Positions 4,184 through 58,570 of a stretch of DNA of 64,000 nt are shown here, piece by piece. Source of the DNA: Thermoplasmata archaeon (GTDB lineage Archaea; Thermoplasmatota; Thermoplasmata; Lutacidiplasmatales; JAMCUS01); contig JBMFVL010000001.1 of the NCBI GenBank assembly GCA_049966015.1, forward strand, positions 6,000-69,999. The letters run 5' to 3'. A program made the translations under genes and the position numbers. The stretch's first letter is position 1; each line of letters begins with the position of its first letter. Under the pieces are notes generated by a model that saw only the letters and a list, made by a program, of their open reading frames with translations, searched no databases and was not told where the DNA came from.

Positions 4184-4903
4184 TTATTTGTTTTTATCAA
4201 CCATTTTTTCAGCTCTTTTTATAATACCCAACAAAACTTCATTATCTTCTTCTGTGGGCCATGAAGATATCAATATTTTCCTGACATGCAAGAGCACTTT
4301 TTTTCTTCTGTTCACGGGATAATCTATTTTTTCCATCAAGTTTTCTATTTCCTGAACTAATATTCTATAGATCTTTCCATTCATTTTTTCATTTGGTACT
4401 GGAAGATCTTTTTTCATATAATTGGCCATGTACAGTTCATACAAAACTATTCCAACAGCATGTGATAGATTCATTACACCATAGGTAGGGTTGGTAGGAA
4501 TTGTTACTGTGAAATCGCACATGTTGAGCTCTTCATTTGTTAACCCGTTATCTTCAGTACCAAACAAGATAGCACCTGTTCCTTTTCTTAAAGAACTCAT
4601 ATATGCCAGTGTTCTTGGGGATATGGCACTCCTTAATATGTTCCTTTTGCTTTTGCTATTTACACCAGTTGTGCCTATTACAACATCTGAATTTGATATC
4701 GCTTCTTCTATACTATCTACGTATTTTGCTTTTTCTAATACTGGATATGCATGCATAGCACGTTTTCTAGCTTCTAAACCTATTTCTGTAAGAGGGGAGA
4801 CAATAACCATATTGGTAAAGCCAAAATTCATCATCACTCTTGCTATGGCTCCAATATTACCTTCGTATTTTGGCTTTACGATCACTACTTTGTATTTTAG
4901 CAT
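4184..4903 (-). CDS. SpoU/TrmH-family RNA 2'-O-methyltransferase (TrmJ-like)
   Basis: SPOUT N-terminus KYEGNIGAIARVMMNFG with a C-terminal trefoil-knot region; 239 aa. Confidence 0.65.
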   Translation of the reverse strand: MLKYKVVIVKPKYEGNIGAIARVMMNFGFTNMVIVSPLTEIGLEARKRAMHAYPVLEKAKYVDSIEEAISNSDVVIGTTGVNSKSKRNILRSAISPRTLAYMSSLRKGTGAILFGTEDNGLTNEELNMCDFTVTIPTNPTYGVMNLSHAVGIVLYELYMANYMKKDLPVPNEKMNGKIYRILVQEIENLMEKIDYPVNRRKKVLLHVRKILISSWPTEEDNEVLLGIIKRAEKMVDKNK

Positions 4904-13452: not shown

Positions 13453-13524
13453 GCCGCTGTGGCTTAGTGGTATAGCGACTCCTTGGTAAGGAGTAGGTCG
13501 AGGGTTCAATTCCCTCCAGCGGCT
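13453..13524 (+). tRNA. tRNA-Thr (anticodon GGU)
   Basis: The sequence folds as a cloverleaf: acceptor GCCGCTG/CAGCGGC, anticodon stem ACTCC/GGAGT with loop TTGGTAA, T-arm GAGGG-TTCAATT-CCCTC. No intron. Confidence 0.8.
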
Positions 13525-13579
13525 TTTGTTGTTGCACTTTACATCAAAATATAAATACAGAAATCACTTAATAAAAAAT

Positions 13580-14890
13580 ATGCAAAGGAGTTATATTAAA
13601 GATATTACCAATGAATTGAATAACAAAGAGGTTAAAATTGCCGGTTTTTTGCAAGAAATAAGATCACTTAGCAAGCTTTCTTTTTTCATAGTGCGCGATA
13701 TAACAGGCACTGTCCAGTGCACATTAAAAAAAGCAAATATCGACGAAAACAGTTATAAAATATGGTCAAGTATCGAGAGGGAATCTGTAATTGAGGTTGT
13801 TGGTATTGTTAAGGTCGGTACTGAAGCCAAATCAGGAATAGAGATAGAAGTAAAAAACATTAATGTGGTTTCCCGTGCGCAGGTTCCTTTACCCTTGCCT
13901 GTTGTGGATAAGGTTAATGCTACATTAGATACAAGGTTGAACAATCGATTTCTAGATGTTAGAAAAGAAAGGATAGCCAAAATTTTTAAATTTAGGTCAG
14001 TGGTTATACAATACATAAGGGAATTTTTAATCTCAGAAGGTTTTATAGAAATTGAAACTCCCAAGATTGTTTCACAAGGTGCTGAAGGGGGAGCAACATT
14101 ATTCCCTATTGATTACTTCGGAAATAAAGCATACCTTGCGCAAAGCCCTCAACTTTATAAACAAATGGCAATGGCTTCAGGATTGGAAAGAGTTTTTGAA
14201 ATTTCACATGCTTTTAGGGCAGAACCCTCTGATACGATCAGGCATTTAACAGAATTCACATCATTGGATATTGAAATGTCATATATTGATAGTTCAGAAG
14301 ATGTCAGGAATATCTTGGAAAAAATGATTTTATATGTTGTGAATGCCATATCTGCAAAAAATATGGATATGGTTAATTCTTTAGGCATTGAAGTGCCTAA
14401 AATGATAACCCCATTCCCTAGAGTACAGTATGATGAATGCAAAAATATGTTATTACAAAAAGGTATTAATGTTTCAGATATTGGTTCAGAAGAAGAAAAA
14501 ATTTTGGGGCAGATAATATCAGAAAAATATGGTGCCGATTTTTACTTTATAACTGATTTTCCAGTAGAGGTTAAAAAAACAACTTTCTATGCAAAGAGGT
14601 TGGACAATAACCCTACTTTGACTGGCTATTTTGATTTGGAATTCAGGGGTATGGAAATAACTTCTGGTGGTCAAAGAGAACACCGTTACGATGTGCTTGT
14701 CTCCCAAATAAAAGAAGCGGGGTTATCTCCAGATTCTTTTGAAGGTTATTTAAAGGCCTTTAAGTATGGCATACCTACACATGGGGGTTTTGGATTCGGT
14801 GTAGATCGATTGATCCAGCAACTATTGAAAGAGACCAATATCAGAGAAGTTGTACTTTATCCTAGAGATAGATTTAGACTTGTACCGTAG
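13580..14890 (+). CDS. aspS: Aspartyl-tRNA synthetase (archaeal class IIb)
   Basis: Anticodon-binding OB fold at the N-terminus; class II motifs FRAE, QSPQLYKQ and GGFGFGVDRL. The annotated start was moved to the Met after the tRNA gene. Confidence 0.65.
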   Translation: MQRSYIKDITNELNNKEVKIAGFLQEIRSLSKLSFFIVRDITGTVQCTLKKANIDENSYKIWSSIERESVIEVVGIVKVGTEAKSGIEIEVKNINVVSRAQVPLPLPVVDKVNATLDTRLNNRFLDVRKERIAKIFKFRSVVIQYIREFLISEGFIEIETPKIVSQGAEGGATLFPIDYFGNKAYLAQSPQLYKQMAMASGLERVFEISHAFRAEPSDTIRHLTEFTSLDIEMSYIDSSEDVRNILEKMILYVVNAISAKNMDMVNSLGIEVPKMITPFPRVQYDECKNMLLQKGINVSDIGSEEEKILGQIISEKYGADFYFITDFPVEVKKTTFYAKRLDNNPTLTGYFDLEFRGMEITSGGQREHRYDVLVSQIKEAGLSPDSFEGYLKAFKYGIPTHGGFGFGVDRLIQQLLKETNIREVVLYPRDRFRLVP

Positions 14891-22566: not shown

Positions 22567-22650
22567 GTATTGAGTATTGCATTATAATATTTCTTTTTTT
22601 TTAATTGTTTATCGACAATTTTTATGTTTTTAAAGAACAAAAAAGATTTA

Positions 22651-22797
22651 TGGGAGCACTGGGAATTGAACCCAGGTCGGCGGGTAACTTCTTAGGGGAT
22701 CGATGCTCCAATTAATCATCATTTTTATTCAGATTACCCAAGTTTCTTCTTTTCCCCATAACTGGAGCCCGCTAGGATACCTCTACCCCATGCTCCC
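22651..22797 (-). tRNA. tRNA-Trp (anticodon CCA) with a 76-nt intron in the anticodon loop
   Basis: Minus-strand cloverleaf: acceptor GGGAGCA/TGCTCCC, anticodon stem GCGGG/CCCGC with loop CUCCAG[intron]A, T-arm CTGGG-TTCAATT-CCCAG. The intron (37/38 position) contains AUGAUGA and CUGA motifs. Confidence 0.75.
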
Positions 22798-22908
22798 ATG
22801 CACGTACATATTTTTGTATTGATATTTATAATTTTTTTATAAAATGGGCATAAACGAATCAAAACCAAAAAAATATATTGATATATTAGATATCATGTGT
22901 TGATTCTT

Positions 22909-29121: not shown

Positions 29122-29142
29122 CTTTTAAAATATGTTATGTTT

Positions 29143-29262
29143 AGGTTGGGGGAGCCTTCAAACAAGGCTGAGAGGATCGTGTGAATCGACCCCTATACAC
29201 CTGATCCAGGTAATGCTGGCGTAGGGAAACCCTTGTGTATGGTATACCCCTCCTGGGGATAA
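29143..29262 (+). promoter_or_regulatory. TPP (THI-box) riboswitch
   Basis: Conserved TPP aptamer elements in order: GGGGAGCC ... CTGAGAGG ... ACCCC ... ACCTGATCCAGGTAATGCTGGCGTAGGGAAACCC. The 3' segment CCCCTCCTGGGG lies just upstream of the ATG and could occlude the RBS. Confidence 0.8.
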
Positions 29263-29268
29263 TAAAAA

Positions 29269-30393
29269 ATGGATAAGATTGGTAAAAATTGGAAGTTTAA
29301 GATTTTAGTTGTTGTGGCTATTGTGGTATTAGCGACGGTATTTTATGAAGGATACGTGCTTTATGTACAAAATCAAAAGAGTTCTGAACCTACACTTGTG
29401 ATATACACATATGGATCGCTGTTCAAATACGGTGCCAATCCAAATGAAACAATGAATATCGTTTTCGGTACATTTGAAAAGAAATACCATGTAAATATAG
29501 AGATAGAATACCTGAATAACATTCTCCAGACTTTAGAATCCCAAAAATCGAATCCTCAGGCAGACCTTGTAATTGGTTTAAGTAATGTAGAGGCACCAAC
29601 AGCAATTGAGAATGGGTTATTGGATCCGTATAACTATACTAACGATATTCCTTCCTTTTTGATCAATGGCCTTAGCAGCACCCACTACCTTACACCATAT
29701 GAATATTCATATTTAGCAATTGACTATACCATGTCCTTTTATAACCAGACCAATGGAAATGTTAGCCATTCTAATTTTTTGAATTTCTTAAACAGTACAT
29801 GGGCAAAAAATTTAATTTTAGAATCTCCGTTGACAGATACAACAGGCACAAATTTTTTGATATGGCAGATCGCTTTCTATGAATATGTACTTCACGACAA
29901 TAATTGGATTAGCTGGTGGAAAAGCATAAAGAATTATGCACTGATTGAAAGTGACTGGAGTACTGCCTTTAACCTTTTTACCACAAGTAATAATCCCCAA
30001 CAGCTCGTAGCCAGTTATTCTACTGACCCAGCTTATGAAATATACAACAACGGTGCGATGAACGGTACATTTAGCTATAACAGCACATTGTCTTATTATA
30101 ACAATACATATTACGGTTGGGATACTATATTCGGTATAGGAATAGTGCATGGTTCCACCCATTTGCTTTTGGACCAGGAATTTATCAACTGGTTTTTAAG
30201 CGGAACTGTACAATCTCAAATTCCTTTAAATGAATGGGCATACCCTGCAAATAATACAGTTATGTTACCTCCTGCATATAAATATGCCGTGAATCCCTCT
30301 AATGTTGTTCCTTTAAACAATTACCTTACACAACAACAAATATATTCAAACATGACATCGTGGTTAGAACAATGGCAATTAGCAATGAGTTGA
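29269..30393 (+). CDS. ABC transporter substrate-binding protein (thiamine/TbpA-like), membrane-anchored
   Basis: N-terminal TM anchor plus periplasmic-binding fold. First gene after the TPP riboswitch, followed by a permease and an ATPase. Confidence 0.6.
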   Translation: MDKIGKNWKFKILVVVAIVVLATVFYEGYVLYVQNQKSSEPTLVIYTYGSLFKYGANPNETMNIVFGTFEKKYHVNIEIEYLNNILQTLESQKSNPQADLVIGLSNVEAPTAIENGLLDPYNYTNDIPSFLINGLSSTHYLTPYEYSYLAIDYTMSFYNQTNGNVSHSNFLNFLNSTWAKNLILESPLTDTTGTNFLIWQIAFYEYVLHDNNWISWWKSIKNYALIESDWSTAFNLFTTSNNPQQLVASYSTDPAYEIYNNGAMNGTFSYNSTLSYYNNTYYGWDTIFGIGIVHGSTHLLLDQEFINWFLSGTVQSQIPLNEWAYPANNTVMLPPAYKYAVNPSNVVPLNNYLTQQQIYSNMTSWLEQWQLAMS

Positions 30394-31964
30394 GATGGAA
30401 ACTGTTTAAATGGTTAGGCATTTTAGCAGTTTTATTGCCTTTTATTTTATTTTTGTTTGTGCCTTTAATCTATTCTATATATTATGTACATCCTTTTTAT
30501 ATATACACCTTTTTTAATACACCATACAAGATAAAAATTTTTGAATTTTCATTGGAAAATTCTATGATACAGGGATTTTTGAGTGCGTTATGCTCTTTTG
30601 CAATAGGATATCCTGTGGGAATTATAATAGGGTTGTATCAATTCAGGTTTAAGAAGATTGTTCTCACATTATCCTACATTGCTTTTTTTATGCCATCTAT
30701 TTTGATGGTTTTTGCGTTCATTGAATTTTTTTATTTATTTCACTTTTACAATTTTTTTGGATTGTACGGGATTATTTTGGTTAACACTACTTTTAATGCC
30801 CCATTGATAGCAATTTTCACATCGAGTTCTACAGATCATATACCTGTTTCTTTAATATACAGTGCCAGATTGCTTAAGGCAAATATCATTAAAATTTTTA
30901 GAAAAATTTATTTCCCCTACACATATGAATCTGCTTTAATAGGTTTTATATTGGCGTTTATTTATTCTTTCATGGGCTTTACAGCACCTCTTATGATAGG
31001 GGGAACTTCTAATTACACCATGGAAATATGGATATACATACTATACAAATCATTTTTTGATGTTAAAGGAGCGGTTACTGTTGCTTTATTGCAAATTCTA
31101 ATTTTAATTATACCTGTTGCCATATATTTTATTTTATCATCTAAATCAATGTATCTTTCAAATTTATCAAGGAAGAAAGATAACTTATATTCATCGGCTA
31201 ATTACAAAAAAAGCCTTGCTGCATATGTGTTAGTTTCTTTATATACACTGTTTATTTCAATTCCATTTTTTACTATATTATATTATACATTGTTAGGAAC
31301 AGGGAAATTATCAATTATACCATTTTTAACTTTATTCAGCAATATAACCACGTATAAGATAGGGGTGCCTTATGTTAATGTTATTATAAATTCCTTATTT
31401 TTTTCAAGTATTGCAATGTTTTTATCAATGGGAATATCATTGATAGTGCTTTATTTTGGTGAAGAACTTATATGGATTAAGATTTCTATTGTGCTTCCAT
31501 TGATCGTTTCACCCATAGTATTAGCATTGGTAAATTACATGTTTTATATCAACATTTTTATCAACGTTTGGCCTATAATTATTATAGCACAGACAATGGT
31601 GTCTTTACCTATCGTATCTAGACTCATTGATAACTCCATAAAAATGGTACCTAAAAATCTGGAGTATTCTGCTATGTTGCTACATACAAGCAAATCAGAC
31701 ATATTTTTTAAAATAAAATTACCTATAATTAAATACACATTGATATTATCATCAATGCTCTCTTTTGTTATGGCATTAGGGGAGTTTGGTGCAACTTTTT
31801 TTATATTTACACCATTATTCACAACTATTCCTGTAAGCATATATGAATTTCAAAGTTTGAGGAATTTCACTCTTGCTTACGCTTCAGCTTCTATATTGTT
31901 TGTTATTACTTTTGTAATTCTTTATACTGTTTTTAGCAAGGAGGCATATAAATGGCAAAACTAG
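30372..31964 (+). CDS. ABC transporter permease with duplicated 6-TM domains (ThiP/FbpB family)
   Basis: About 530 aa with two permease repeats, the same size class as ThiP. Confidence 0.6.
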   Translation: MAISNELRWKLFKWLGILAVLLPFILFLFVPLIYSIYYVHPFYIYTFFNTPYKIKIFEFSLENSMIQGFLSALCSFAIGYPVGIIIGLYQFRFKKIVLTLSYIAFFMPSILMVFAFIEFFYLFHFYNFFGLYGIILVNTTFNAPLIAIFTSSSTDHIPVSLIYSARLLKANIIKIFRKIYFPYTYESALIGFILAFIYSFMGFTAPLMIGGTSNYTMEIWIYILYKSFFDVKGAVTVALLQILILIIPVAIYFILSSKSMYLSNLSRKKDNLYSSANYKKSLAAYVLVSLYTLFISIPFFTILYYTLLGTGKLSIIPFLTLFSNITTYKIGVPYVNVIINSLFFSSIAMFLSMGISLIVLYFGEELIWIKISIVLPLIVSPIVLALVNYMFYINIFINVWPIIIIAQTMVSLPIVSRLIDNSIKMVPKNLEYSAMLLHTSKSDIFFKIKLPIIKYTLILSSMLSFVMALGEFGATFFIFTPLFTTIPVSIYEFQSLRNFTLAYASASILFVITFVILYTVFSKEAYKWQN

Positions 31965-32887
31965 AGCTTGTAGACATAAGCAAAAAATATGGAAATTGGA
32001 AACTAGGCCCGGTATCAGTTACATTAAATGACGACGAATCTTTGACTATTCTTGGCCCTACTGGTTCAGGAAAATCAACGTTGCTCAAAATTATTGCAGG
32101 CATAGAAATGCCTGATGATGGCAAGGTTTTGGTTGATGGAAAAGATATAACAAACTTGCCTATTTATGAAAGGGACATAGGTATGATTTTTCAGGATTAT
32201 TCTCTATTTCCGCATTTAACTGCAAAAGAAAATATTTATTTTGGCTTGGACAATATCCCGTTGAGTAACAATAAAAAGGAAAGTCTTTTTAATAACATTA
32301 TTAAAACTTTGCATATTGAAAAATTAATGAATAAGTATCCACATCAACTTTCAGGTGGAGAAAAACAAAGAATTGCAATTGCAAGATCAGTAGTAATGAA
32401 ACCTTCTTTTTTGCTTTGTGATGAACCTCTGTCTTCAGTTGATTCACGTACTAGGGAAGAACTTCGCAGTGAACTAAAATCTTTGCAATACACTGACCAT
32501 ATCCAGATGGTTTATGTTACACATGATCATCTTGAAGGGATGTTTATCGGTGACAAAATTATGATTATAAATGAAGGTAAAGTAGAACAAGTATCTTCTT
32601 CAACAGATATTTATATGCATCCGAAAACACCTTTTGTTGCGTGGTTTGTGGGATTGAATGTGTTAAATATTGATAATAAAAGAATTGCTGTTGACCCATT
32701 TGATATAGAAATATCAGATGACGGAATTATTGAAGGGCATGTAATATCAGGGAGATATATATACAATACATGGATAGGTTATGTGAAGGTAGGCAACCAG
32801 ATGATAAAATTGCAAAGTTATTCAGATCAATTAAAATACATTGGCAAGGATGTCAAAATAAAAATTAAAAGATACATAAATTTGTAA
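31952..32887 (+). CDS. ABC transporter ATP-binding protein with a C-terminal TOBE-like domain (ThiQ/PotA-like)
   Basis: Walker A GPTGSGKST, signature LSGGEKQR, Walker B LLCDEP; C-terminal extension. Confidence 0.8.
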   Translation: MAKLELVDISKKYGNWKLGPVSVTLNDDESLTILGPTGSGKSTLLKIIAGIEMPDDGKVLVDGKDITNLPIYERDIGMIFQDYSLFPHLTAKENIYFGLDNIPLSNNKKESLFNNIIKTLHIEKLMNKYPHQLSGGEKQRIAIARSVVMKPSFLLCDEPLSSVDSRTREELRSELKSLQYTDHIQMVYVTHDHLEGMFIGDKIMIINEGKVEQVSSSTDIYMHPKTPFVAWFVGLNVLNIDNKRIAVDPFDIEISDDGIIEGHVISGRYIYNTWIGYVKVGNQMIKLQSYSDQLKYIGKDVKIKIKRYINL

Positions 32888-45826: not shown

Positions 45827-45921
45827 GCGGGGGTTCTCGAGCTTGGCCAAAGGGGCAAGGCTTAGGACCTTGTTGCGTAGGCATTCGCCGGTTCAAAAAA
45901 TTGAAAATCCGGCCCCCCGCA
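45827..45921 (+). tRNA. tRNA-Leu (anticodon UAG) with an apparent roughly 10-nt insertion in the T-loop
   Basis: Type II tRNA: acceptor GCGGGGG/CCCCCGC, D-loop AGCTTGGCCAAAG, anticodon stem CAAGG/CCTTG with loop CTTAGGA, long variable arm. T-stem GCCGG/CCGGC encloses a 17-nt loop TTCAAAAAATTGAAAAT. Confidence 0.7.
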
Positions 45922-45986
45922 TTTCATAAAAAAGATTAAAATAAACATAACGGGATAAGCCATTGTATTTTGTAAGGTGTAAATAT

Positions 45987-48623
45987 ATGTCAGAAGATAG
46001 CACAGATTATTCTCCACAAAATGTGGAGCCAAAATGGCAACATTATTGGATTGATAATAAAATTTTTAAGTTTGATATCAGTTCGTCAAAACCTGTTTAT
46101 TCAATAGATAATCCACCTAGGTATACTTCAGGGCCATTGCATATGGGTCATGCTATAGGCTATTCTTTGATAGATATTGTAGCACGGTACAAACGTATGA
46201 GAGGTTATAATGTGTTCTTGCCTTTGTGCTTTGATGGCAATGGTATGCCTATAGAAGTAAAAGTTGAAAAAGAATTTTCAGTTAATAAAAACAATACAGA
46301 TAGGGATACATTGGTAAAGATGTGCTCGGATTATTCAAATTCAAATATAAAAGAGATGAAAGAGCAGTTCATAAAACTGGGAATAATGATGGATGAAAGT
46401 TTATATTACCAAACAGATAGCCCCGAATACAGAAAGTTTACTCAAATTACTTTTTTAAAGTTATATGAAAAAGGCCTAGTTTATAGGAAAGAACATCCTG
46501 TTATATGGTGCCCACATTGCGAAACTTCATTGTCAGCAGCCGATGTTGAGTACCATGATGAATCCAAAGAATTGTATTATGTTAAATTTCTAGGGGATGC
46601 TGAATTAGTTATAGCAACTACACGGCCTGAATTATTATCAACTTGCCAGCTTGTAGCAGTACATCCAGATGATGATAGATATAGAAACATCATTGGTAAA
46701 AAATTGAAAGTTCCTTTATTTGGTAGGGAGGTCCCAATAATAGCGGATGATAAAGTAGACCCTGATTTTGGCACAGGGGCTGTTATGATATGCACCTTCG
46801 GTGATAAAACAGATTTATACTGGGCTTATAAGTATAACTTAATTTTTATAAAAGGCATTGATGAAAAAGGCAAACTTACAGACGTTGCCGGAAAATATTC
46901 TGGATTGTACGTAAATGAAGGCAGAAAAGAAGTTGTCAATGATTTGAAAAAAGAAAATTACATTATTGACCAGAAAGTTATTAACCAAAGCGTAGGTACT
47001 TGTTGGAGGTGCCATACTCCTGTAGAATTTATAAACAAAACCAACTGGTTTTTGAAAACATTAGATTTTAAGCAATCCATAAAAGAGTTTAACGAAAAAA
47101 TAATCTGGCACCCAGACTATATGTCCAAAAGGCTTGAATCTTGGGTAGATTCTTTATTGTGGGATTGGTGTATTTCCAGGCAAAGATATTTTGCAACCCC
47201 TATACCTGTATGGATATGCAATAAATGCGATTTTGTATTGCCAGCCAAAGAAGAGGATTGTTATATAAATCCTTTGAAAAAAGAACCATATATTAAAAAA
47301 TGTCCGGTATGTGGAGGGGATATTGTTGGTTCTGATGAAGTATTTGATACATGGATGGATTCAAGCATAACACCCCTTTACAATACTTACTGGAAAAGGG
47401 ATTATGATCTTTTTAAAAAACTGTATCCAATGAGTCTGAGGCCCCAGAGTCATGATATTATAAGAACATGGGTGTTTTATACATTGCTTAGGAGTATCCA
47501 GATTACAAATGAGGCTCCCTGGAAAGAAATAATGATACACGGTTTTATAATGGCACCTGATGGATCGCCTATGCACGCTTCAGCAGGTAATGCAATAGAC
47601 CCTTTGCCAATAATAAGTGAATATGGTGCAGATGCATGGAGGTATTATACGTCTAAATGCAAATTGGGAGAAGATACTGCGTTTCAAATTAAAGATGTGC
47701 ACCATGGCAGAAAATTTGCTAACAAATATTTCAATATTATGAAATTTATATCACTTATGGTTAATTCTAATGGTTCATCGATTGATGTTGTAAATGAATA
47801 TATCATGCCACTTACAGATCGGTGGATTTTGTCTAGATACAGTGCTGTTTTGGAGGAAGTAACAGATTTCTATGATTCATACCAGTTTGACAAAGCAATA
47901 GCGTCAATAGAAAATTTCACCTGGCACGAGTTTGCTGATTTTTACATCGAAATGGTTAAAAAACGTGCTAAAGCAGGAGATAAAAATGCCCTTTATACGC
48001 TTTACAAAATAGGATTTGGAATAACACAAATGCTTGCACCCATAATGCCACATGTAACTGAAGATGTATTCCAGGAGATATTTAGAAAAGGTTATGCTTT
48101 TGATAGCATAGGGGTTACATTATGGAATGAATATTCATTTTTTGATAAAGAGGCCGTTAAAAAAGGAGAAATTGTTAAAAAGATTGTTTCCTCTGTGAGG
48201 GAGTTTAGTGGGGAAAAAAGAGTCCATAAGTTTAAGAAAATCATTTTGGTAGGGGAGATGGATCAAGAAATCAAGGAGGAAATTTTGGGGTTAAAGCATG
48301 TATTGTTATGTGATAATATAGAAATAAAAAATGCCGTGCAAACACATCAATTGCCTGTCAGTATAAAACTGAAAATGGATATTATAGGTAAGGAATATAG
48401 AAACAATACTATGAAAATTGTTTCATTGGTTTCTTCTAAATCCCTTGATGATTTATACAGTAACTTAAAGCAAAATGGGTATTTAGAACTCAAATTGGAG
48501 AATGATACAATAAGACTCCCTATTGATTATTTCAATATCCAGTTAATGAATTCAATCGACTCCGATAAGGTAGAAAAAGTAGATTCATCTCTTAACGACA
48601 TTTCAATTTATGCATCTTATTGA
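45987..48623 (+). CDS. leuS: Leucyl-tRNA synthetase-like class I aaRS (archaeal LeuRS architecture) with a degenerate KMSKS motif
   Basis: HIGH motif present (PLHMGHAIGY), and archaeal LeuRS-like N-terminus (KRMRGYNVFLPLCFDGNGMPIE). At the KMSKS position the sequence reads DGSPMHASAGNAIDP, followed by the conserved YGADAWRYY. The annotated start was moved downstream of the tRNA-Leu gene. Confidence 0.65.
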   Translation: MSEDSTDYSPQNVEPKWQHYWIDNKIFKFDISSSKPVYSIDNPPRYTSGPLHMGHAIGYSLIDIVARYKRMRGYNVFLPLCFDGNGMPIEVKVEKEFSVNKNNTDRDTLVKMCSDYSNSNIKEMKEQFIKLGIMMDESLYYQTDSPEYRKFTQITFLKLYEKGLVYRKEHPVIWCPHCETSLSAADVEYHDESKELYYVKFLGDAELVIATTRPELLSTCQLVAVHPDDDRYRNIIGKKLKVPLFGREVPIIADDKVDPDFGTGAVMICTFGDKTDLYWAYKYNLIFIKGIDEKGKLTDVAGKYSGLYVNEGRKEVVNDLKKENYIIDQKVINQSVGTCWRCHTPVEFINKTNWFLKTLDFKQSIKEFNEKIIWHPDYMSKRLESWVDSLLWDWCISRQRYFATPIPVWICNKCDFVLPAKEEDCYINPLKKEPYIKKCPVCGGDIVGSDEVFDTWMDSSITPLYNTYWKRDYDLFKKLYPMSLRPQSHDIIRTWVFYTLLRSIQITNEAPWKEIMIHGFIMAPDGSPMHASAGNAIDPLPIISEYGADAWRYYTSKCKLGEDTAFQIKDVHHGRKFANKYFNIMKFISLMVNSNGSSIDVVNEYIMPLTDRWILSRYSAVLEEVTDFYDSYQFDKAIASIENFTWHEFADFYIEMVKKRAKAGDKNALYTLYKIGFGITQMLAPIMPHVTEDVFQEIFRKGYAFDSIGVTLWNEYSFFDKEAVKKGEIVKKIVSSVREFSGEKRVHKFKKIILVGEMDQEIKEEILGLKHVLLCDNIEIKNAVQTHQLPVSIKLKMDIIGKEYRNNTMKIVSLVSSKSLDDLYSNLKQNGYLELKLENDTIRLPIDYFNIQLMNSIDSDKVEKVDSSLNDISIYASY

Positions 48624-48862: not shown

Positions 48863-49762
48863 ATGATTAGGAATAGGAGGAAGAAGAAGGGGGTTGCTAG
48901 TGTTGTAGCTACCCTGTTTGCTATCATGCTAGGGGTTATTATAGTTAGCAATTATATTGCCACTGATTTGCCCCAATACGTTTACAATCAGGAGTATGAA
49001 CACAGTGTTTATGTGCAGAATCAGTTCATGAACATACAGGCTGCAATTATGCAGGAAATGCTTACCCACAATTCCCTTATAACCGTTTATACCCCTGTGA
49101 CGTTGGGCACTCCAGGTCTCCCTCCCTTTGCTTCTTCGAGTCCTGGTACGTTGACCATTGAAGGGTTGACTTACGGGCAGTCTAGTATAGATGTGAGTTA
49201 TTATCATCCAAACAATGGTGTAAAAGATAAAACTTTGCTTACTGAACCATTAGGTGATATTGTTCTGAACCAATTCAACAAATATTACCCTATGCAAATG
49301 TTTTATTACGAAGATGGCGCCATATTTGTTTCTCAGGGAAGTAATAATGTTGTTATGATAAGCGCTCCTGATATACAATTTAACCTTGTTCATGGCTCTG
49401 GTAACAGTTATGCTAATGTTTTAAACCTTAGCGTTATACAGATTATTTCCTCTGATCTTGCCCCATCTACAGGGAGTAACACGGTAGGAGTGGGTGTAAC
49501 AATGACAAACTTCGTTTCCAGTGTTAATCCTGGCAATCCTAATGGTGATGACGTATATGTTACAATTATCAGCCCTGTGGCTATTGCGTGGTACAATTAC
49601 TTCATGAGCGTTAAAGCACAACTTACAGGTGGAAATGGGAATTCCGCACAGAATGAACTTAAAGTTACCCTAAATTCTCCTACTAATGTTTTGATCAAGT
49701 TTAGGAATGTAGAAACACTTAATTTTTATGAAGCGTTTGTTACTGTAAAAATCCAGCAATGA
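48863..49762 (+). CDS. Archaeal type IV pilin-like protein (class III signal peptide)
   Basis: N-terminus RRKKKG|VASVVATLFAIMLGVIIV fits the prepilin peptidase (PibD/FlaK) cleavage pattern; the mature region is Gly/Asn/Thr-rich. Confidence 0.5.
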   Translation: MIRNRRKKKGVASVVATLFAIMLGVIIVSNYIATDLPQYVYNQEYEHSVYVQNQFMNIQAAIMQEMLTHNSLITVYTPVTLGTPGLPPFASSSPGTLTIEGLTYGQSSIDVSYYHPNNGVKDKTLLTEPLGDIVLNQFNKYYPMQMFYYEDGAIFVSQGSNNVVMISAPDIQFNLVHGSGNSYANVLNLSVIQIISSDLAPSTGSNTVGVGVTMTNFVSSVNPGNPNGDDVYVTIISPVAIAWYNYFMSVKAQLTGGNGNSAQNELKVTLNSPTNVLIKFRNVETLNFYEAFVTVKIQQ

Positions 49763-52505: not shown

Positions 52506-52552
52506 ACCGATAGCAAATTAAAAATACCATTTTATCGATGTTGGTAGTATAT

Positions 52553-52637
52553 GCAGGGGTAGTCAAGCTTGGTCAAAGGCGCCAGACTAAGGATCTGGTC
52601 TTATAGAAGTCCGTGAGTTCAAATCTCACCCCCTGCA
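52553..52637 (+). tRNA. tRNA-Leu (type II); the anticodon loop reads CUAAGGA, so the apparent anticodon is AAG
   Basis: Acceptor GCAGGGG/CCCCTGC, D-loop AGCTTGGTCAAAG, anticodon stem CCAGA/TCTGG, long variable arm, T-arm GTGAG-TTCAAAT-CTCAC. Confidence 0.7.
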
Positions 52638-52755
52638 TCAATATTTTAAGAAAGATTTTTGAAATACTTTGTGTAATTAAAAACCAGGAGATTTTAATAA
52701 GTTTAAATCAGTATAATCAAAAATATTTTTGGTAAAATAAAAATTTAAAAAATGT

Positions 52756-57151: not shown

Positions 57152-58570
57152 TCATTCTACACAGCAACTCATTTTAGATATATCCCTGACAAAAGACTGC
57201 GCTGCCAACTTTATCCCTTCTGAAAAAGAGGGAAATATATGGCTGGTAGAGATTATGTCTTCGTAGGTAAATCCGTATTTTACAGCATATGCCCCTTCAG
57301 TTATTATGTCAGTGGCAGAAGGGGACATTATATGCATGCCTACAATTTTGTGTGTATTTTGGTCTGCAATGATCTTTATTAATCCATCTGTTTCATCCAC
57401 TATAGAAGCTTTGGTAAGGTTTTTTAATGAAAAGGTCCTCGTTAAACATGCCCCCTTTTTCTCATTGTATTCTTTTTCAGTGTATCCAACACCTGCTATC
57501 TGTGGCTTGGTAAACACTGCCCATACGGCAGAGTTGTAATCTATATGCTCTTCTACACCAAATATGTTCATAGCAGCAATAACACCTTCCCTTGCAGCTA
57601 GCGTTTCTAGATAAAGGTGTTTAGATGTGCAATCCCCAGCTGCATAAACATTTTCAGCAGAGGATTTCATTGTGCTATCAACTAGAATATACCCGTATTT
57701 ATTTTTATCAATACCAGCATTTTCCAATTGCAAAAAATCAGTGTTTGGAGACCTGTTAGTTGCAATGAGTAGTTCATCAGATTCTATTGTATCAATGCCA
57801 TTTGGCGTATCAATTTGCACCTTTTTCATACCTTCTTTTTCAGATAAATTCAAAATATTTGCGTTGAAATAAAATTTTATTCCCTCTTTCTCTAATTTTT
57901 GTTTTATTGCTTCTATAATTTCTGGTTCAGTATTTAAATGAATTCCGTGTCTGGCAATGATTGATACTTCAGACCCAAAGTGTAGAAAGGCCTGTCCTAT
58001 TTCAAGTGCTATTGCACCTGCACCTATTATTGTAATTCTCCTTGGAAGCTTATAAATATCCCATACAGTGTTGCTTGTCAGGTATTTTACATTTTCAATC
58101 CCTGGGATTGACGGAATTGAAGGTGTAGACCCTGTAGCTATTATTATGTTATATCCATATAGTTGAGTAATATCATTTCCGTTAACCACTTCTATAATAT
58201 TATTGCTTTTAAATTTTCCTTTGCCTTTGTATACATCTACATTTTTATAATTTTCAATTACTTTTTCGTATTTATCTATTCTTGAATTGTTAACAAATTG
58301 CCTTAACCCCTGCATAAGATTATCAAAATCAAATTTAACATTTGAAGCACCAATTCCTTTTATTGATGGATGGAGGGGTGTATAAACAGAATGGGATGCT
58401 TCTAAAAAATACTTGGATGGAACACAACCAACATTCACACAGGTTCCGCCTATGGGGCCAATACCGACCATTGCAATTTTTGCTTGACTTGAGGTTAATT
58501 CGCTTGCTTTTATCGTTGCAGAAAAGGCTGCTGCACCATTGCCGATAATTATCAGATCATATTCTCTCAT
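57152..58570 (-). CDS. merA: Mercuric reductase (pyridine nucleotide-disulfide oxidoreductase)
   Basis: Redox-active disulfide GGTCVNVGCVPSK, FAD and NAD(P) Rossmann motifs, and the C-terminal Cys pair (SCCVE) diagnostic of MerA. No fused HMA domain. Confidence 0.65.
   Translation of the reverse strand: MREYDLIIIGNGAAAFSATIKASELTSSQAKIAMVGIGPIGGTCVNVGCVPSKYFLEASHSVYTPLHPSIKGIGASNVKFDFDNLMQGLRQFVNNSRIDKYEKVIENYKNVDVYKGKGKFKSNNIIEVVNGNDITQLYGYNIIIATGSTPSIPSIPGIENVKYLTSNTVWDIYKLPRRITIIGAGAIALEIGQAFLHFGSEVSIIARHGIHLNTEPEIIEAIKQKLEKEGIKFYFNANILNLSEKEGMKKVQIDTPNGIDTIESDELLIATNRSPNTDFLQLENAGIDKNKYGYILVDSTMKSSAENVYAAGDCTSKHLYLETLAAREGVIAAMNIFGVEEHIDYNSAVWAVFTKPQIAGVGYTEKEYNEKKGACLTRTFSLKNLTKASIVDETDGLIKIIADQNTHKIVGMHIMSPSATDIITEGAYAVKYGFTYEDIISTSHIFPSFSEGIKLAAQSFVRDISKMSCCVE

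What the first reader, a model, noticed from the sequence alone, without database searches (positions are those of the whole stretch)
45987..48623. LeuRS-like synthetase with intact HIGH but degenerate KMSKS (PMHAS)
At the universally conserved KMSKS position (just before the conserved YGADAxRYY block) the protein reads S-P-M-H-A-S, so both catalytic lysines are missing. The rest of the protein retains archaeal LeuRS architecture, including a CP1/editing-sized insertion and zinc-binding cysteines. This could be a non-aminoacylating LeuRS paralog, similar to the two LeuRS copies reported in Sulfolobus, one of which is dispensable. Alternatively it could be a lineage-specific variant of the catalytic loop. 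Its cognate-looking tRNA-Leu gene is immediately upstream.
Basis: partly seen in the sequence, partly recalled or inferred. Interest (0 to 1): 0.55.

Follow-up and report, generated by a model that had tools for sequence, protein, structure and literature searches.

The report
Valyl-tRNA synthetase with lysine-free catalytic loop
The gene is the organism's ordinary valyl-tRNA synthetase (not a leucyl enzyme), and its odd lysine-free "PMHAS" catalytic loop is a conserved trademark of the whole Thermoplasmatota group, not a sign of a dead copy.

Summary
The ORF (45987-48623, +, 878 aa) and the motif are real. HIGH reads HMGH, and PMHAS (aa 528-532) aligns exactly on KMSKS of Thermus ValRS. But the protein is ValRS, not LeuRS. 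It passes NCBIfam valS equivalogs (917 bits, cutoff 738) and fails leuS_arch (185 vs 648). It is 100% identical to a GenBank "valine--tRNA ligase [Thermoplasmata archaeon]".

The loop is not degenerate. PMH[A/S/T]S is present in all 120 closest homologues and in 71 Thermoplasmatota species genomes. P, M, H and the final S are invariant, and dN/dS against a 90% relative is 0.086. More distant archaeal ValRS keep KMSKS, and TACK lineages have xMHKS. A single-copy check on a whole genome could not be run.

New point: loss of the second lysine co-occurs perfectly (182/182 against 0/82) with Pro-to-Arg at position 45, seven residues before HIGH. This suggests a relocated catalytic cation, as in KMSK-less ArgRS. 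That step is inferred and rests on one evolutionary event.

The upstream tRNA-Leu(UAG) is real but not cognate. It carries a 10-nt T-loop mini-intron that hides it from ARAGORN and Rfam.

The parts
45987..48623 (+). valS: valine--tRNA ligase, 878 aa, archaeal/type-2 ValRS
   Evidence: NF009687 scores 917 bits (cutoff 738) and TIGR00422 scores 759 (cutoff 612). The best PDB sequence hit is T. thermophilus ValRS 1GAX, E 1e-113. The protein is 100% identical to NCBI MGC8580767.1 'valine--tRNA ligase [Thermoplasmata archaeon]'. AF2 model pLDDT is 86.6 and matches 1GAX with TM 0.78.
46113..46124 (+). P43-P44-R45-Y46, the pre-HIGH loop. Arg45 replaces the Pro found in KMSKS-type ValRS and is the candidate relocated catalytic cation.
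   Evidence: R45 is present in 97% of the clade sample. The KMSKS group has P at 94%, and all 6 xMHKS/AMSKS intermediates have P. Co-occurrence is perfect: 182/182 sequences without K/R at motif position 4 have Arg here, and 0/82 with K/R do. A catalytic role is inferred, not shown.
46140..46151 (+). HIGH signature (H52-M-G-H55), intact
   Evidence: Translation. H52 and G54 are invariant and H55 is nearly invariant (90% or more) in the 23-sequence clade alignment.
46509..47312 (+). CP1 region. It holds the editing domain (T211-T-R-P-E215; D273 and D276, equivalent to Tth D276 and D279) and two Zn-type Cys clusters (C175/C178 + C339/C342; C411/C414 + C439/C442).
   Evidence: Alignment to 1GAX. 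Invariant columns in the clade alignment. PF13603 editing-domain hit. Coordinates.
47568..47582 (+). P528-M-H-A-S532, occupying the KMSKS position. Both lysines are absent. His530 is invariant in the clade.
   Evidence: Aligns exactly to KMSKS of 1GAX. Motif counts are PMHSS 54, PMHTS 44, PMHAS 23 among the query plus 120 homologues. All 71 Thermoplasmatota genome loci have PMH[AST]S, except one with PMHTH. AF2 pLDDT is below 50 for residues 531-535, as expected for a mobile loop.
47817..48230 (+). Anticodon-binding helical domain (aa 611-748)
   Evidence: PF08264 Anticodon_1, E 1e-32.
45827..45921 (+). Neighbouring tRNA-Leu(UAG) gene, not cognate to ValRS, with a 17-nt T-loop. The proposed 10-nt mini-intron lies at about 45898-45907 (position ~59/60) in a bulge-helix-loop arrangement.
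   Evidence: Sequence. Missed by ARAGORN and Rfam. Called tRNA-Leu(tag) after deleting 8-12 nt of the T-loop. The MFE fold shows the T-stem, a 5-bp hairpin and a 3-nt AAU bulge. It is conserved in L001. In L002/L003 it carries compensatory acceptor-stem changes and a 13-nt insert.

Best explanation
This is the housekeeping valyl-tRNA synthetase of an AT-rich (33.7% GC) Thermoplasmata archaeon. It keeps every other part of a working ValRS:
- the HIGH motif;
- the valine pocket (P43, P44, D83, W456, I491, W495, equivalent to Thermus P41, P42, D81, W456, I491, W495);
- the CP1 editing site;
- two Zn-type Cys clusters;
- the anticodon-binding domain.

The mobile KMSKS loop was remodelled once, on the stem of the Thermoplasmatota ValRS clade, to P-M-H-[A/S/T]-S. 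That sequence has been held fixed by selection ever since, so it is a functional variant and not decay.

Likely path (inferred): KMSKS changed to xM(S/H)KS, with the first Lys lost and Ser3 becoming His, as still seen in TACK archaea. This then changed to PMHxS, with the second Lys lost.

Likely mechanism (inferred, about 40% confidence): transition-state stabilisation of the ATP phosphates is normally supplied by the second lysine. Here it is supplied by Arg45, which appeared in the pre-HIGH loop (PPP to PPR) on the same branch. Invariant His530 of the loop would assist. This parallels KMSK-less arginyl-tRNA synthetases, which use a lysine upstream of HIGH.

Shown: identity, distribution, conservation and co-occurrence. 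Inferred: catalytic competence, single-copy status, and the roles of R45 and H530.
For: - Family: valS equivalog scores are above curated cut-offs. 1GAX is the best PDB sequence hit, with a full-length alignment. The fold match to 1GAX has TM 0.78/0.79. GenBank already names the identical protein valine--tRNA ligase.
- Loop distribution: PMH[AST]S is in 120/120 nearest homologues at 46-90% identity. It is also in 71/71 Thermoplasmatota species-representative loci, counting one that reads PMHTH. Two Methanofastidiosia-like MAGs have SMHAS. Hadarchaeota, Hydrothermarchaeota and Methanobacterium have KMSKS.
- Wider library: in the 1.84-billion-protein representative library, ValRS at 43% identity or less are overwhelmingly K[MI]SKS. 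A few xMHKS/AMSKS representatives also occur; the six looked up include TACK lineages and two unnamed clusters.
- Phylogeny: the clade is monophyletic in an NJ tree, with KMSKS archaeal ValRS as sister.
- Constraint: D525, G526, P528, M529, H530, S532 and N535 are invariant in the clade alignment. dN/dS is 0.086 against the 90%-identical orthologue, with almost no replacements in the catalytic core.
- Compensation lead: R45 is clade-specific and co-occurs 182/182 against 0/82 with absence of K/R at motif position 4.
- Position of R45: the residue just upstream of HIGH in class I enzymes contacts the adenylate through its backbone, the 'backbone bracket' (PMC5919687). R45 is at or next to that position.
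Against: - No enzymatic data exist for any member of the clade.
- I could not scan a whole Thermoplasmatota genome for a second, canonical valS.
- The R45/loop co-occurrence is one phylogenetic event, so it is correlation without replication.
- R45 is at -7 from the first His of HIGH. The ArgRS compensating Lys is closer to HIGH (about -3, from memory), so the analogy is positional only in a loose sense.
- The structure tool returns no coordinates, so the distance from R45 or H530 to the phosphates was not measured.
- Cultured Thermoplasma, Picrophilus and Ferroplasma sequences were not among the 80 loci returned, so they were not checked by name.
Confidence: 0.8

Rival explanations
1. Same functional housekeeping ValRS, but Arg45 is not the substitute. 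The missing second lysine would be replaced by protonated His530 of the loop itself, or by a bound monovalent cation. Potassium replaces the second lysine in human TyrRS, whose loop reads KMSSS (own knowledge: Austin & First 2002).
For: H530 is invariant in the clade and lies inside the mobile loop. It already appears in xMHKS lineages that still have Pro at position 45, so it predates R45 and is plausibly functional. No other conserved K/R lies within the loop.
Against: His at motif position 3 coexists with the second Lys in TACK ValRS, so by itself it does not mark loss of that Lys. R45 does mark it. Methanomassiliicoccales are neutrophiles, where a His cation is less assured (own knowledge).
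Confidence: 0.3
2. Uncompensated loss: the enzyme simply works more slowly without the lysines, and slow-growing archaea tolerate this. R45 and H530 would then be neutral or structural clade markers.
For: In other class I enzymes, mutation of the second lysine reduces but does not always abolish activity (own knowledge). No kinetic data argue otherwise.
Against: Invariance of P, M, H and S over a phylum-level clade, together with dN/dS 0.086, indicates that the new loop sequence is itself under strong selection. This is unexpected for a loop that has lost its role.
Confidence: 0.1
3. Non-aminoacylating ValRS paralogue, for example retained for editing or a regulatory role, with a canonical KMSKS ValRS encoded elsewhere in the genome.
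For: Both canonical lysines are absent. The whole genome could not be inspected.
Against: - Every one of 71 Thermoplasmatota species loci and 120 nearest homologues carries the variant. No KMSKS ValRS attributable to the phylum appeared among named hits.
- The protein scores as the valS equivalog. That model serves as a single-copy archaeal marker (own knowledge).
- The valine pocket, HIGH motif and anticodon-binding domain are all conserved.
- No other class I synthetase was found among the ten large ORFs of the 64-kb window that were scanned.
Confidence: 0.05
4. LeuRS-like paralogue paired with the upstream tRNA-Leu.
For: A tRNA-Leu(UAG) gene lies 65 nt upstream. Class Ia synthetases share architecture, and there is a weak PF13603 'LeuRS editing' hit at 25.8 bits.
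Against: leuS_arch scores 185 bits against a cutoff of 648, and LeuRS models align only with aa 9-230. LeuRS structures match with TM about 0.5, against 0.78 for ValRS. The tRNA-Leu/valS adjacency is limited to the window, L001 and L002/L003. Other Thermoplasmatota have tRNA-Gly or nothing nearby.
Confidence: 0.01

Closest known systems
Archaeal/type-2 valine--tRNA ligase (NCBIfam NF009687 / PRK13208; TIGR00422 valS)
   Same: Full-length match above the curated cut-offs. Same domain order: Rossmann fold with HIGH, CP1 editing domain, Zn knuckles, anticodon-binding helical domain and an archaeal C-terminal domain.
   Different: The KMSKS loop reads PMH[AST]S with no lysine, and Pro is replaced by Arg at -7 from HIGH.
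Thermus thermophilus ValRS (PDB 1GAX/1IVS/1IYW)
   Same: 30% identity, TM 0.78/0.79, rmsd 3.7. Valine-pocket and editing residues align: P41/P42/D81/W456/I491/W495 and D276/D279 correspond to P43/P44/D83/W456/I491/W495 and D273/D276.
   Different: Thermus has K528-M-S-K531-S and P43, where this protein has P528-M-H-A-S532 and R45. The bacterial coiled-coil C-terminus is replaced by an archaeal alpha/beta C-terminal domain that resembles IleRS2.
TACK-archaeal ValRS with xMHKS / AMSKS loops (Methanomethylicota MMHKS, Marsarchaeota EMHKS, Fervidicoccaceae AMHKS, Nitrososphaeria AMSKS)
   Same: The first lysine is already lost, and in most of them Ser3 has become His. These are plausible evolutionary intermediates.
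   Different: They retain the second, catalytically critical lysine and keep Pro at the position of R45.
KMSK-less arginyl-tRNA synthetases with a 'HIGH-loop lysine' (Sekine et al. 2001, J Biol Chem 276:3723; cited from memory, not retrieved)
   Same: A class I synthetase lacking the second lysine of the KMSKS loop, with a conserved basic residue just upstream of HIGH that co-varies with that loss.
   Different: A different family (class Ia editing enzyme against ArgRS). The residue is Arg, not Lys, and sits at -7 and not about -3. No mutagenesis evidence exists here.
Class I synthetases with naturally altered signature motifs: IleRS2 with non-canonical HIGH (PMC10485003); human TyrRS KMSSS and TrpRS KMSAS (own knowledge)
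   Same: They show that essential class I enzymes can carry altered signature motifs and stay active when the surrounding structure co-evolves.
   Different: Those cases alter HIGH, or keep the first lysine. Here both lysines are gone in a Val/Ile/Leu-type enzyme.

Membership tests
Valine--tRNA ligase (ValRS) | Score above the curated equivalog cut-off of the valS models | tested here: met
   NF009687 scores 917.2 (cutoff 738) and TIGR00422 scores 759.4 (cutoff 612.1).
Valine--tRNA ligase (ValRS) | Class I HIGH signature | tested here: met
   H52-M-G-H55. H52 and G54 are invariant and H55 nearly invariant (90% or more) in the clade.
Valine--tRNA ligase (ValRS) | KMSKS signature with the catalytic second lysine | tested here: not met
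   P-M-H-A-S sits at the aligned position, and this holds clade-wide. The signature is the only defining feature that fails. I still file the protein as ValRS because the curated whole-protein equivalog test is passed and the variant is orthologue-wide.
Valine--tRNA ligase (ValRS) | Valine-binding pocket and alpha-amino-binding Asp (Thermus P41, P42, D81, W456, I491, W495) | tested here: met
   P43, P44, D83, W456, I491 and W495 align and are invariant in the clade.
Valine--tRNA ligase (ValRS) | CP1 editing domain with the conserved Thr-rich/Arg motif and two Asp residues | tested here: met
   T211-T-R-P-E215, D273 and D276 align to Thermus T214-V-R-P-E218, D276 and D279 and are invariant. Thermus K270 and T272 are not conserved here (M and C).
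Valine--tRNA ligase (ValRS) | Class Ia anticodon-binding domain | tested here: met
   PF08264, E 1e-32, aa 611-748.
Valine--tRNA ligase (ValRS) | Valine activation and tRNA-Val charging | not testable with these tools
   Needs an enzyme assay. Indirect support comes from dN/dS 0.086 and an invariant active site.
Valine--tRNA ligase (ValRS) | Sole valS of the genome | not testable with these tools
   Only 64 kb of the genome is available. No second class I synthetase was found among ten large ORFs scanned.
Leucine--tRNA ligase (archaeal LeuRS) | Score above the leuS_arch / PRK12300 cut-off and a full-length match | tested here: not met
   TIGR00395 scores 185.5 (cutoff 648.5) and NF008957 scores 245.8 (cutoff 677). 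The best stretch covers only aa 9-230. LeuRS structures match with TM about 0.5.
KMSK-less class I synthetase with a compensating basic residue upstream of HIGH (ArgRS paradigm) | A basic residue upstream of HIGH present if and only if the second lysine of the loop is absent | tested here: met
   Arg at -7 from HIGH in 182/182 sequences lacking K/R at motif position 4. The 82 sequences with K/R there have Pro (81) or Asp (1). This reflects a single clade, so one event.
KMSK-less class I synthetase with a compensating basic residue upstream of HIGH (ArgRS paradigm) | The basic residue contacts the ATP phosphates or transition state and is required for catalysis | not testable with these tools
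   The AF2 model gives no coordinates, and no mutagenesis exists. The only support is that the neighbouring position is a ligand-contacting 'backbone bracket' in class I enzymes.

The most novel reading that the evidence does not exclude
In Thermoplasmatota the essential ValRS moved its transition-state-stabilising cation out of the mobile KMSKS loop. Both lysines were lost, giving PMH[AST]S, and an arginine was gained in the pre-HIGH loop (PPP to PPR). His530 would act as a helper. This would be the first such rewiring in a Val/Ile/Leu-type editing synthetase. It would be a natural parallel to KMSK-less ArgRS, with TACK xMHKS enzymes as living intermediates.
Probability: 0.35. Interest if true: 0.6.

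Novelty: new variant of a known kind. Interest (0 to 1): 0.4.

Why it matters
The second lysine of KMSKS is treated as the key catalytic residue of class I synthetases, and Val/Ile/Leu/Met enzymes are regarded as its most faithful keepers. A whole archaeal phylum runs its only recognisable ValRS without either lysine. That phylum includes the human-gut methanogens Methanomassiliicoccales, which are used as a source of orthogonal translation parts.

This gives a clean natural experiment on how the class I transition state can be stabilised differently. It offers testable residues (R45, H530) and apparent evolutionary intermediates.

It also has a practical side.

For this window itself the result is deflationary. 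The gene is an ordinary, correctly annotated valS, not a LeuRS paralogue.

Tried and rejected
- **Literature:** searches for the motif strings PMHSS/PMHTS/PMHAS returned only unrelated acronyms. 'KMSKS' with Thermoplasma gave 0 papers. KMSKS/ValRS/Methanomassiliicoccales and KMSKS/valyl/archaea gave nothing describing this loop. 'Not described' therefore applies only to the searched library.
- **Upstream tRNA detection:** ARAGORN (with and without introns) and Rfam at both gathering and E-value thresholds did not detect it. It was recovered only by manually deleting part of the T-loop.
- **Metagenome scan:** a scan for the T-arm-plus-insert pattern found only the L001 contig again and one chance hit inside a high-GC coding region, L083.
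- **Second valS:** I wanted to test for one in a complete genome.
- **R45/H530 geometry:** I wanted distances to the phosphates, but structure prediction returns no coordinates.
- **Cultured Thermoplasmatales:** Thermoplasma, Picrophilus and Ferroplasma were not in the 80 loci kept out of at least 590, so they remain unchecked by name.
- **Artefact:** a frameshift or assembly artefact was considered and rejected. The motif is in frame, and is identical in a 90% relative and in the GenBank protein.
- **LeuRS:** considered and rejected.
Full report

Yes for the sequence, no for the label. The ORF runs from the ATG at 45987 to the TGA at 48623 on the + strand (878 aa). An in-frame TTG lies at 45963.

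- The HIGH signature reads H52-M-G-H55.
- The pentapeptide P528-M-H-A-S532 is followed by AGNAIDP...YGADAWRYY.
- In the phmmer alignment to T. thermophilus ValRS (1GAX, E 1e-113), PMHAS lies column for column on KMSKS. It is flanked by the conserved G-N-x-I-D-P and Y-G-A-D-A-x-R blocks, so the register is not in doubt.
- Four Cys pairs (175/178, 339/342, 411/414, 439/442) and a CP1/editing insertion are present.

**2. What is the protein?**

It is ValRS, not LeuRS.

- NCBIfam valS equivalogs are passed: NF009687 scores 917 bits against a cutoff of 738, and TIGR00422 scores 759 against 612.
- Archaeal leuS scores 185 against 648 and aligns only over the first ~230 residues.
- Pfam gives tRNA-synt_1 plus Anticodon_1.
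- An AF2 model (pLDDT 86.6, pTM 0.81) matches ValRS 1GAX with TM 0.78/0.79, rmsd 3.7 and 30% identity. It also matches IleRS structures, while LeuRS reaches only TM about 0.5.
- The protein is 100% identical to GenBank MGC8580767.1, 'MAG: valine--tRNA ligase [Thermoplasmata archaeon]'.
- The window is 33.7% GC. It also carries a Thermoplasmatales-type lipid reductase relative, a family B DNA polymerase, AspRS and MerA. No second class I synthetase was found among the ten large ORFs scanned.

**3. How widespread is the loop variant?**

- All 120 best homologues in the 5.8-billion-protein collection have PMH[S/T/A]S. They are 46-90% identical and, where named, come from Methanomassiliicoccales, Thermoplasmata or Thermoplasmatota. 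Counting the query as well, the motifs are PMHSS 54, PMHTS 44 and PMHAS 23.
- In one-genome-per-species contigs, 71 Thermoplasmatota loci all carry it; one of them reads PMHTH. These include Methanomassiliicoccus, Methanoplasma, Methanomethylophilaceae, Aciduliprofundum/DHVE2 and many Thermoplasmata MAGs.
- Two MAGs labelled Methanofastidiosia and Methanomicrobia have SMHAS.
- Hadarchaeota, Hydrothermarchaeota and Methanobacterium have KMSKS.
- In the exhaustive 1.84-billion representative search, the clade collapses to essentially one 50% cluster (P0087, plus a fragment). Every more distant ValRS (43% identity or less) has K[M/I]SKS or a near variant.
- A handful of representatives have lost only the first lysine: Methanomethylicota MMHKS, Marsarchaeota EMHKS, Fervidicoccaceae AMHKS, Nitrososphaeria AMSKS, and the unnamed clusters P0123 (PMHKS) and P0145 (AMSKS).
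- In an NJ tree the PMHxS sequences are monophyletic. Their sister group is KMSKS archaeal ValRS plus two of those intermediates.

**4. Degenerate or functional?**

The evidence points to functional.

- In a 23-sequence alignment spanning the clade (mean column identity 62%), D525, G526, P528, M529, H530, S532 and N535 are invariant.
- So are the Val pocket, the editing residues and seven of the eight Zn Cys residues. H52 and G54 of HIGH are also invariant, while H55 and C414 are nearly invariant (90% or more).
- Against the 90%-identical orthologue on JGI contig Ga0080003_1000106 (L001), dS is 0.57 and dN is 0.049, giving dN/dS 0.086. There are almost no replacements between residues 50-200 and 400-600.

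A loop that had lost its role would drift, and this one is frozen. The second half could not be tested here.

**5. How might it work without lysines?**

I compared 61 clade members with 52 KMSKS-type ValRS and 6 intermediates. The clade-specific fixed residues include P528, H530 and, near the active site, R45, N42 and C81.

R45 stands out. KMSKS-type enzymes and all six intermediates have Pro there (PPP-x-x-x-G-x-x-H-x-G-H), while the clade has PPR[Y/F].

Over 264 sequences the association is perfect:
- Arg at -7 from HIGH is present in 182/182 sequences lacking K/R at loop position 4.
- Pro (81) or Asp (1) is present in the 82 sequences that have it.

The residue just upstream of HIGH is a conserved ligand-contacting 'backbone bracket' in class I enzymes (PMC5919687). 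From memory, the backbone NH of the -7 residue (Asp38) contacts the alpha-phosphate in B. stearothermophilus TyrRS, and Thr40 contacts the gamma-phosphate in the transition state. An Arg side chain at this point could therefore plausibly reach the phosphates.

This resembles KMSK-less ArgRS, where a lysine upstream of HIGH replaces the second lysine (Sekine et al. 2001, from memory).

The inference has limits. All 182 sequences descend from one event, and no geometry or mutagenesis is available.

There are rivals within the 'functional' reading:
- His530 could be the cation.
- A monovalent cation could substitute, as in human TyrRS (from memory).
- The loss could be uncompensated and simply tolerated.

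**6. Comparison with what is known**

The protein is a member of the archaeal/type-2 ValRS family by the curated whole-protein test. It fails one classical signature, KMSKS.

I found no paper describing this loop in the searchable library. GenBank and JGI annotate these proteins routinely as valyl-tRNA synthetase.

Altered signature motifs in active class I enzymes have precedent, for example IleRS2 with a non-canonical HIGH (PMC10485003). A Val/Ile/Leu-type enzyme lacking both lysines across a phylum appears to be an undescribed variant. I rate it 'new variant of a known kind' with moderate interest.

**7. The upstream tRNA**

The adjacency exists only in this narrow lineage: the window, L001 and L002/L003.

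The gene is interesting in its own right.

- Its T-loop is 17 nt (TTCAAAAAATTGAAAAT), which hides it from ARAGORN and Rfam. Removing 8-12 nt restores a tRNA-Leu(UAG) call.
- The fold is T-stem, then a U54-A57:UGAA helix, then a 3-nt AAU bulge. This is the geometry of a relaxed bulge-helix-loop splice motif, and splicing would yield a normal UUCAAAU loop.
- In the 58% relative the insert is 13 nt. The helix and bulge are the same, the loop differs, and the acceptor stem carries compensatory changes.
- Relaxed motifs at T-loop positions are known. They are said to need broad-specificity (alpha-beta)2 or epsilon2 endonucleases, whereas Thermoplasma EndA is the narrow alpha'2 type (PMC6379350).
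- A metagenome scan found no further examples.

**8. Verdict**

The finding as written (a LeuRS paralogue with a dead loop and a cognate tRNA) is not supported. What is there is the normal valS of a Thermoplasmata archaeon. It carries a phylum-wide, selectively maintained, lysine-free catalytic loop and a co-occurring Arg next to HIGH.

Confidence:
- Housekeeping ValRS with a functional lineage-specific loop: about 0.8.
- R45 as the compensating residue: about 0.35-0.4.

Noticed in passing
window 45827-45921 (+); also L001 9841-9935, L002 ~4405-4502, L003 upstream of valS: The tRNA-Leu(UAG) gene has a 10-nt insert in its T-loop (13 nt in the 58% relative), at about position 59/60. The insert is arranged as T-stem, 4-5 bp helix and a 3-nt AAU bulge, which is a relaxed bulge-helix-loop splice motif. 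It would be an unusually short intron, in a phylum whose characterised splicing endonuclease (T. acidophilum alpha'2) has narrow specificity. ARAGORN and Rfam do not detect the gene.
   Followed up: partly
window 52552-52639 (+): A second tRNA-Leu has anticodon AAG (anticodon loop CTAAGGA). A34 tRNAs are generally absent from archaea (own knowledge). In 13 large ORFs of the window, CUU (138) far outnumbers CUC (24). Whether A34 is conserved in relatives or deaminated was not examined.
   Followed up: partly
window 22650-22798 (-): A tRNA-Trp(CCA) gene with a 76-nt intron at the canonical 37/38 position. It was found only when ARAGORN was run with introns allowed, and was missed by the default run and by Rfam.
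   Followed up: no
window 29138-29244 (+): A TPP riboswitch (Rfam RF00059, 72 bits) lies directly upstream of a run of + strand ORFs (29269-32887). One of them weakly resembles the ThiP thiamine ABC permease (ModB-type permeases score higher), so this may be a riboswitch-controlled thiamine uptake operon in an archaeon.
   Followed up: no
window 13453-14890 (+): tRNA-Thr(GGU) (13453-13524) is followed 2 nt later by the ORF of a non-discriminating-type aspartyl-tRNA synthetase (13526-14890; NF003483, 557 bits). This is a second tRNA gene abutting a non-cognate synthetase gene in the same window.
   Followed up: no
L065 and L074 (genome-contig loci): MAGs labelled Methanofastidiosia and 'Methanomicrobia' carry a ValRS of the Thermoplasmatota type (SMHAS loop, PPRY before HIGH, 45-47% identity). 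This suggests horizontal transfer of the variant valS, or mis-binning.
   Followed up: no
window 48863-49762 (+); L001 12867-13766: A conserved 299-aa ORF lies immediately downstream of valS. It has an N-terminal hydrophobic segment and no NCBIfam match. It is syntenic in the 90% relative.
   Followed up: no
window 57152-58570 (-): A mercuric reductase MerA (TIGR02053, 523 bits, above cutoff). This fits a metal-rich, probably acidic or geothermal habitat.
   Followed up: no
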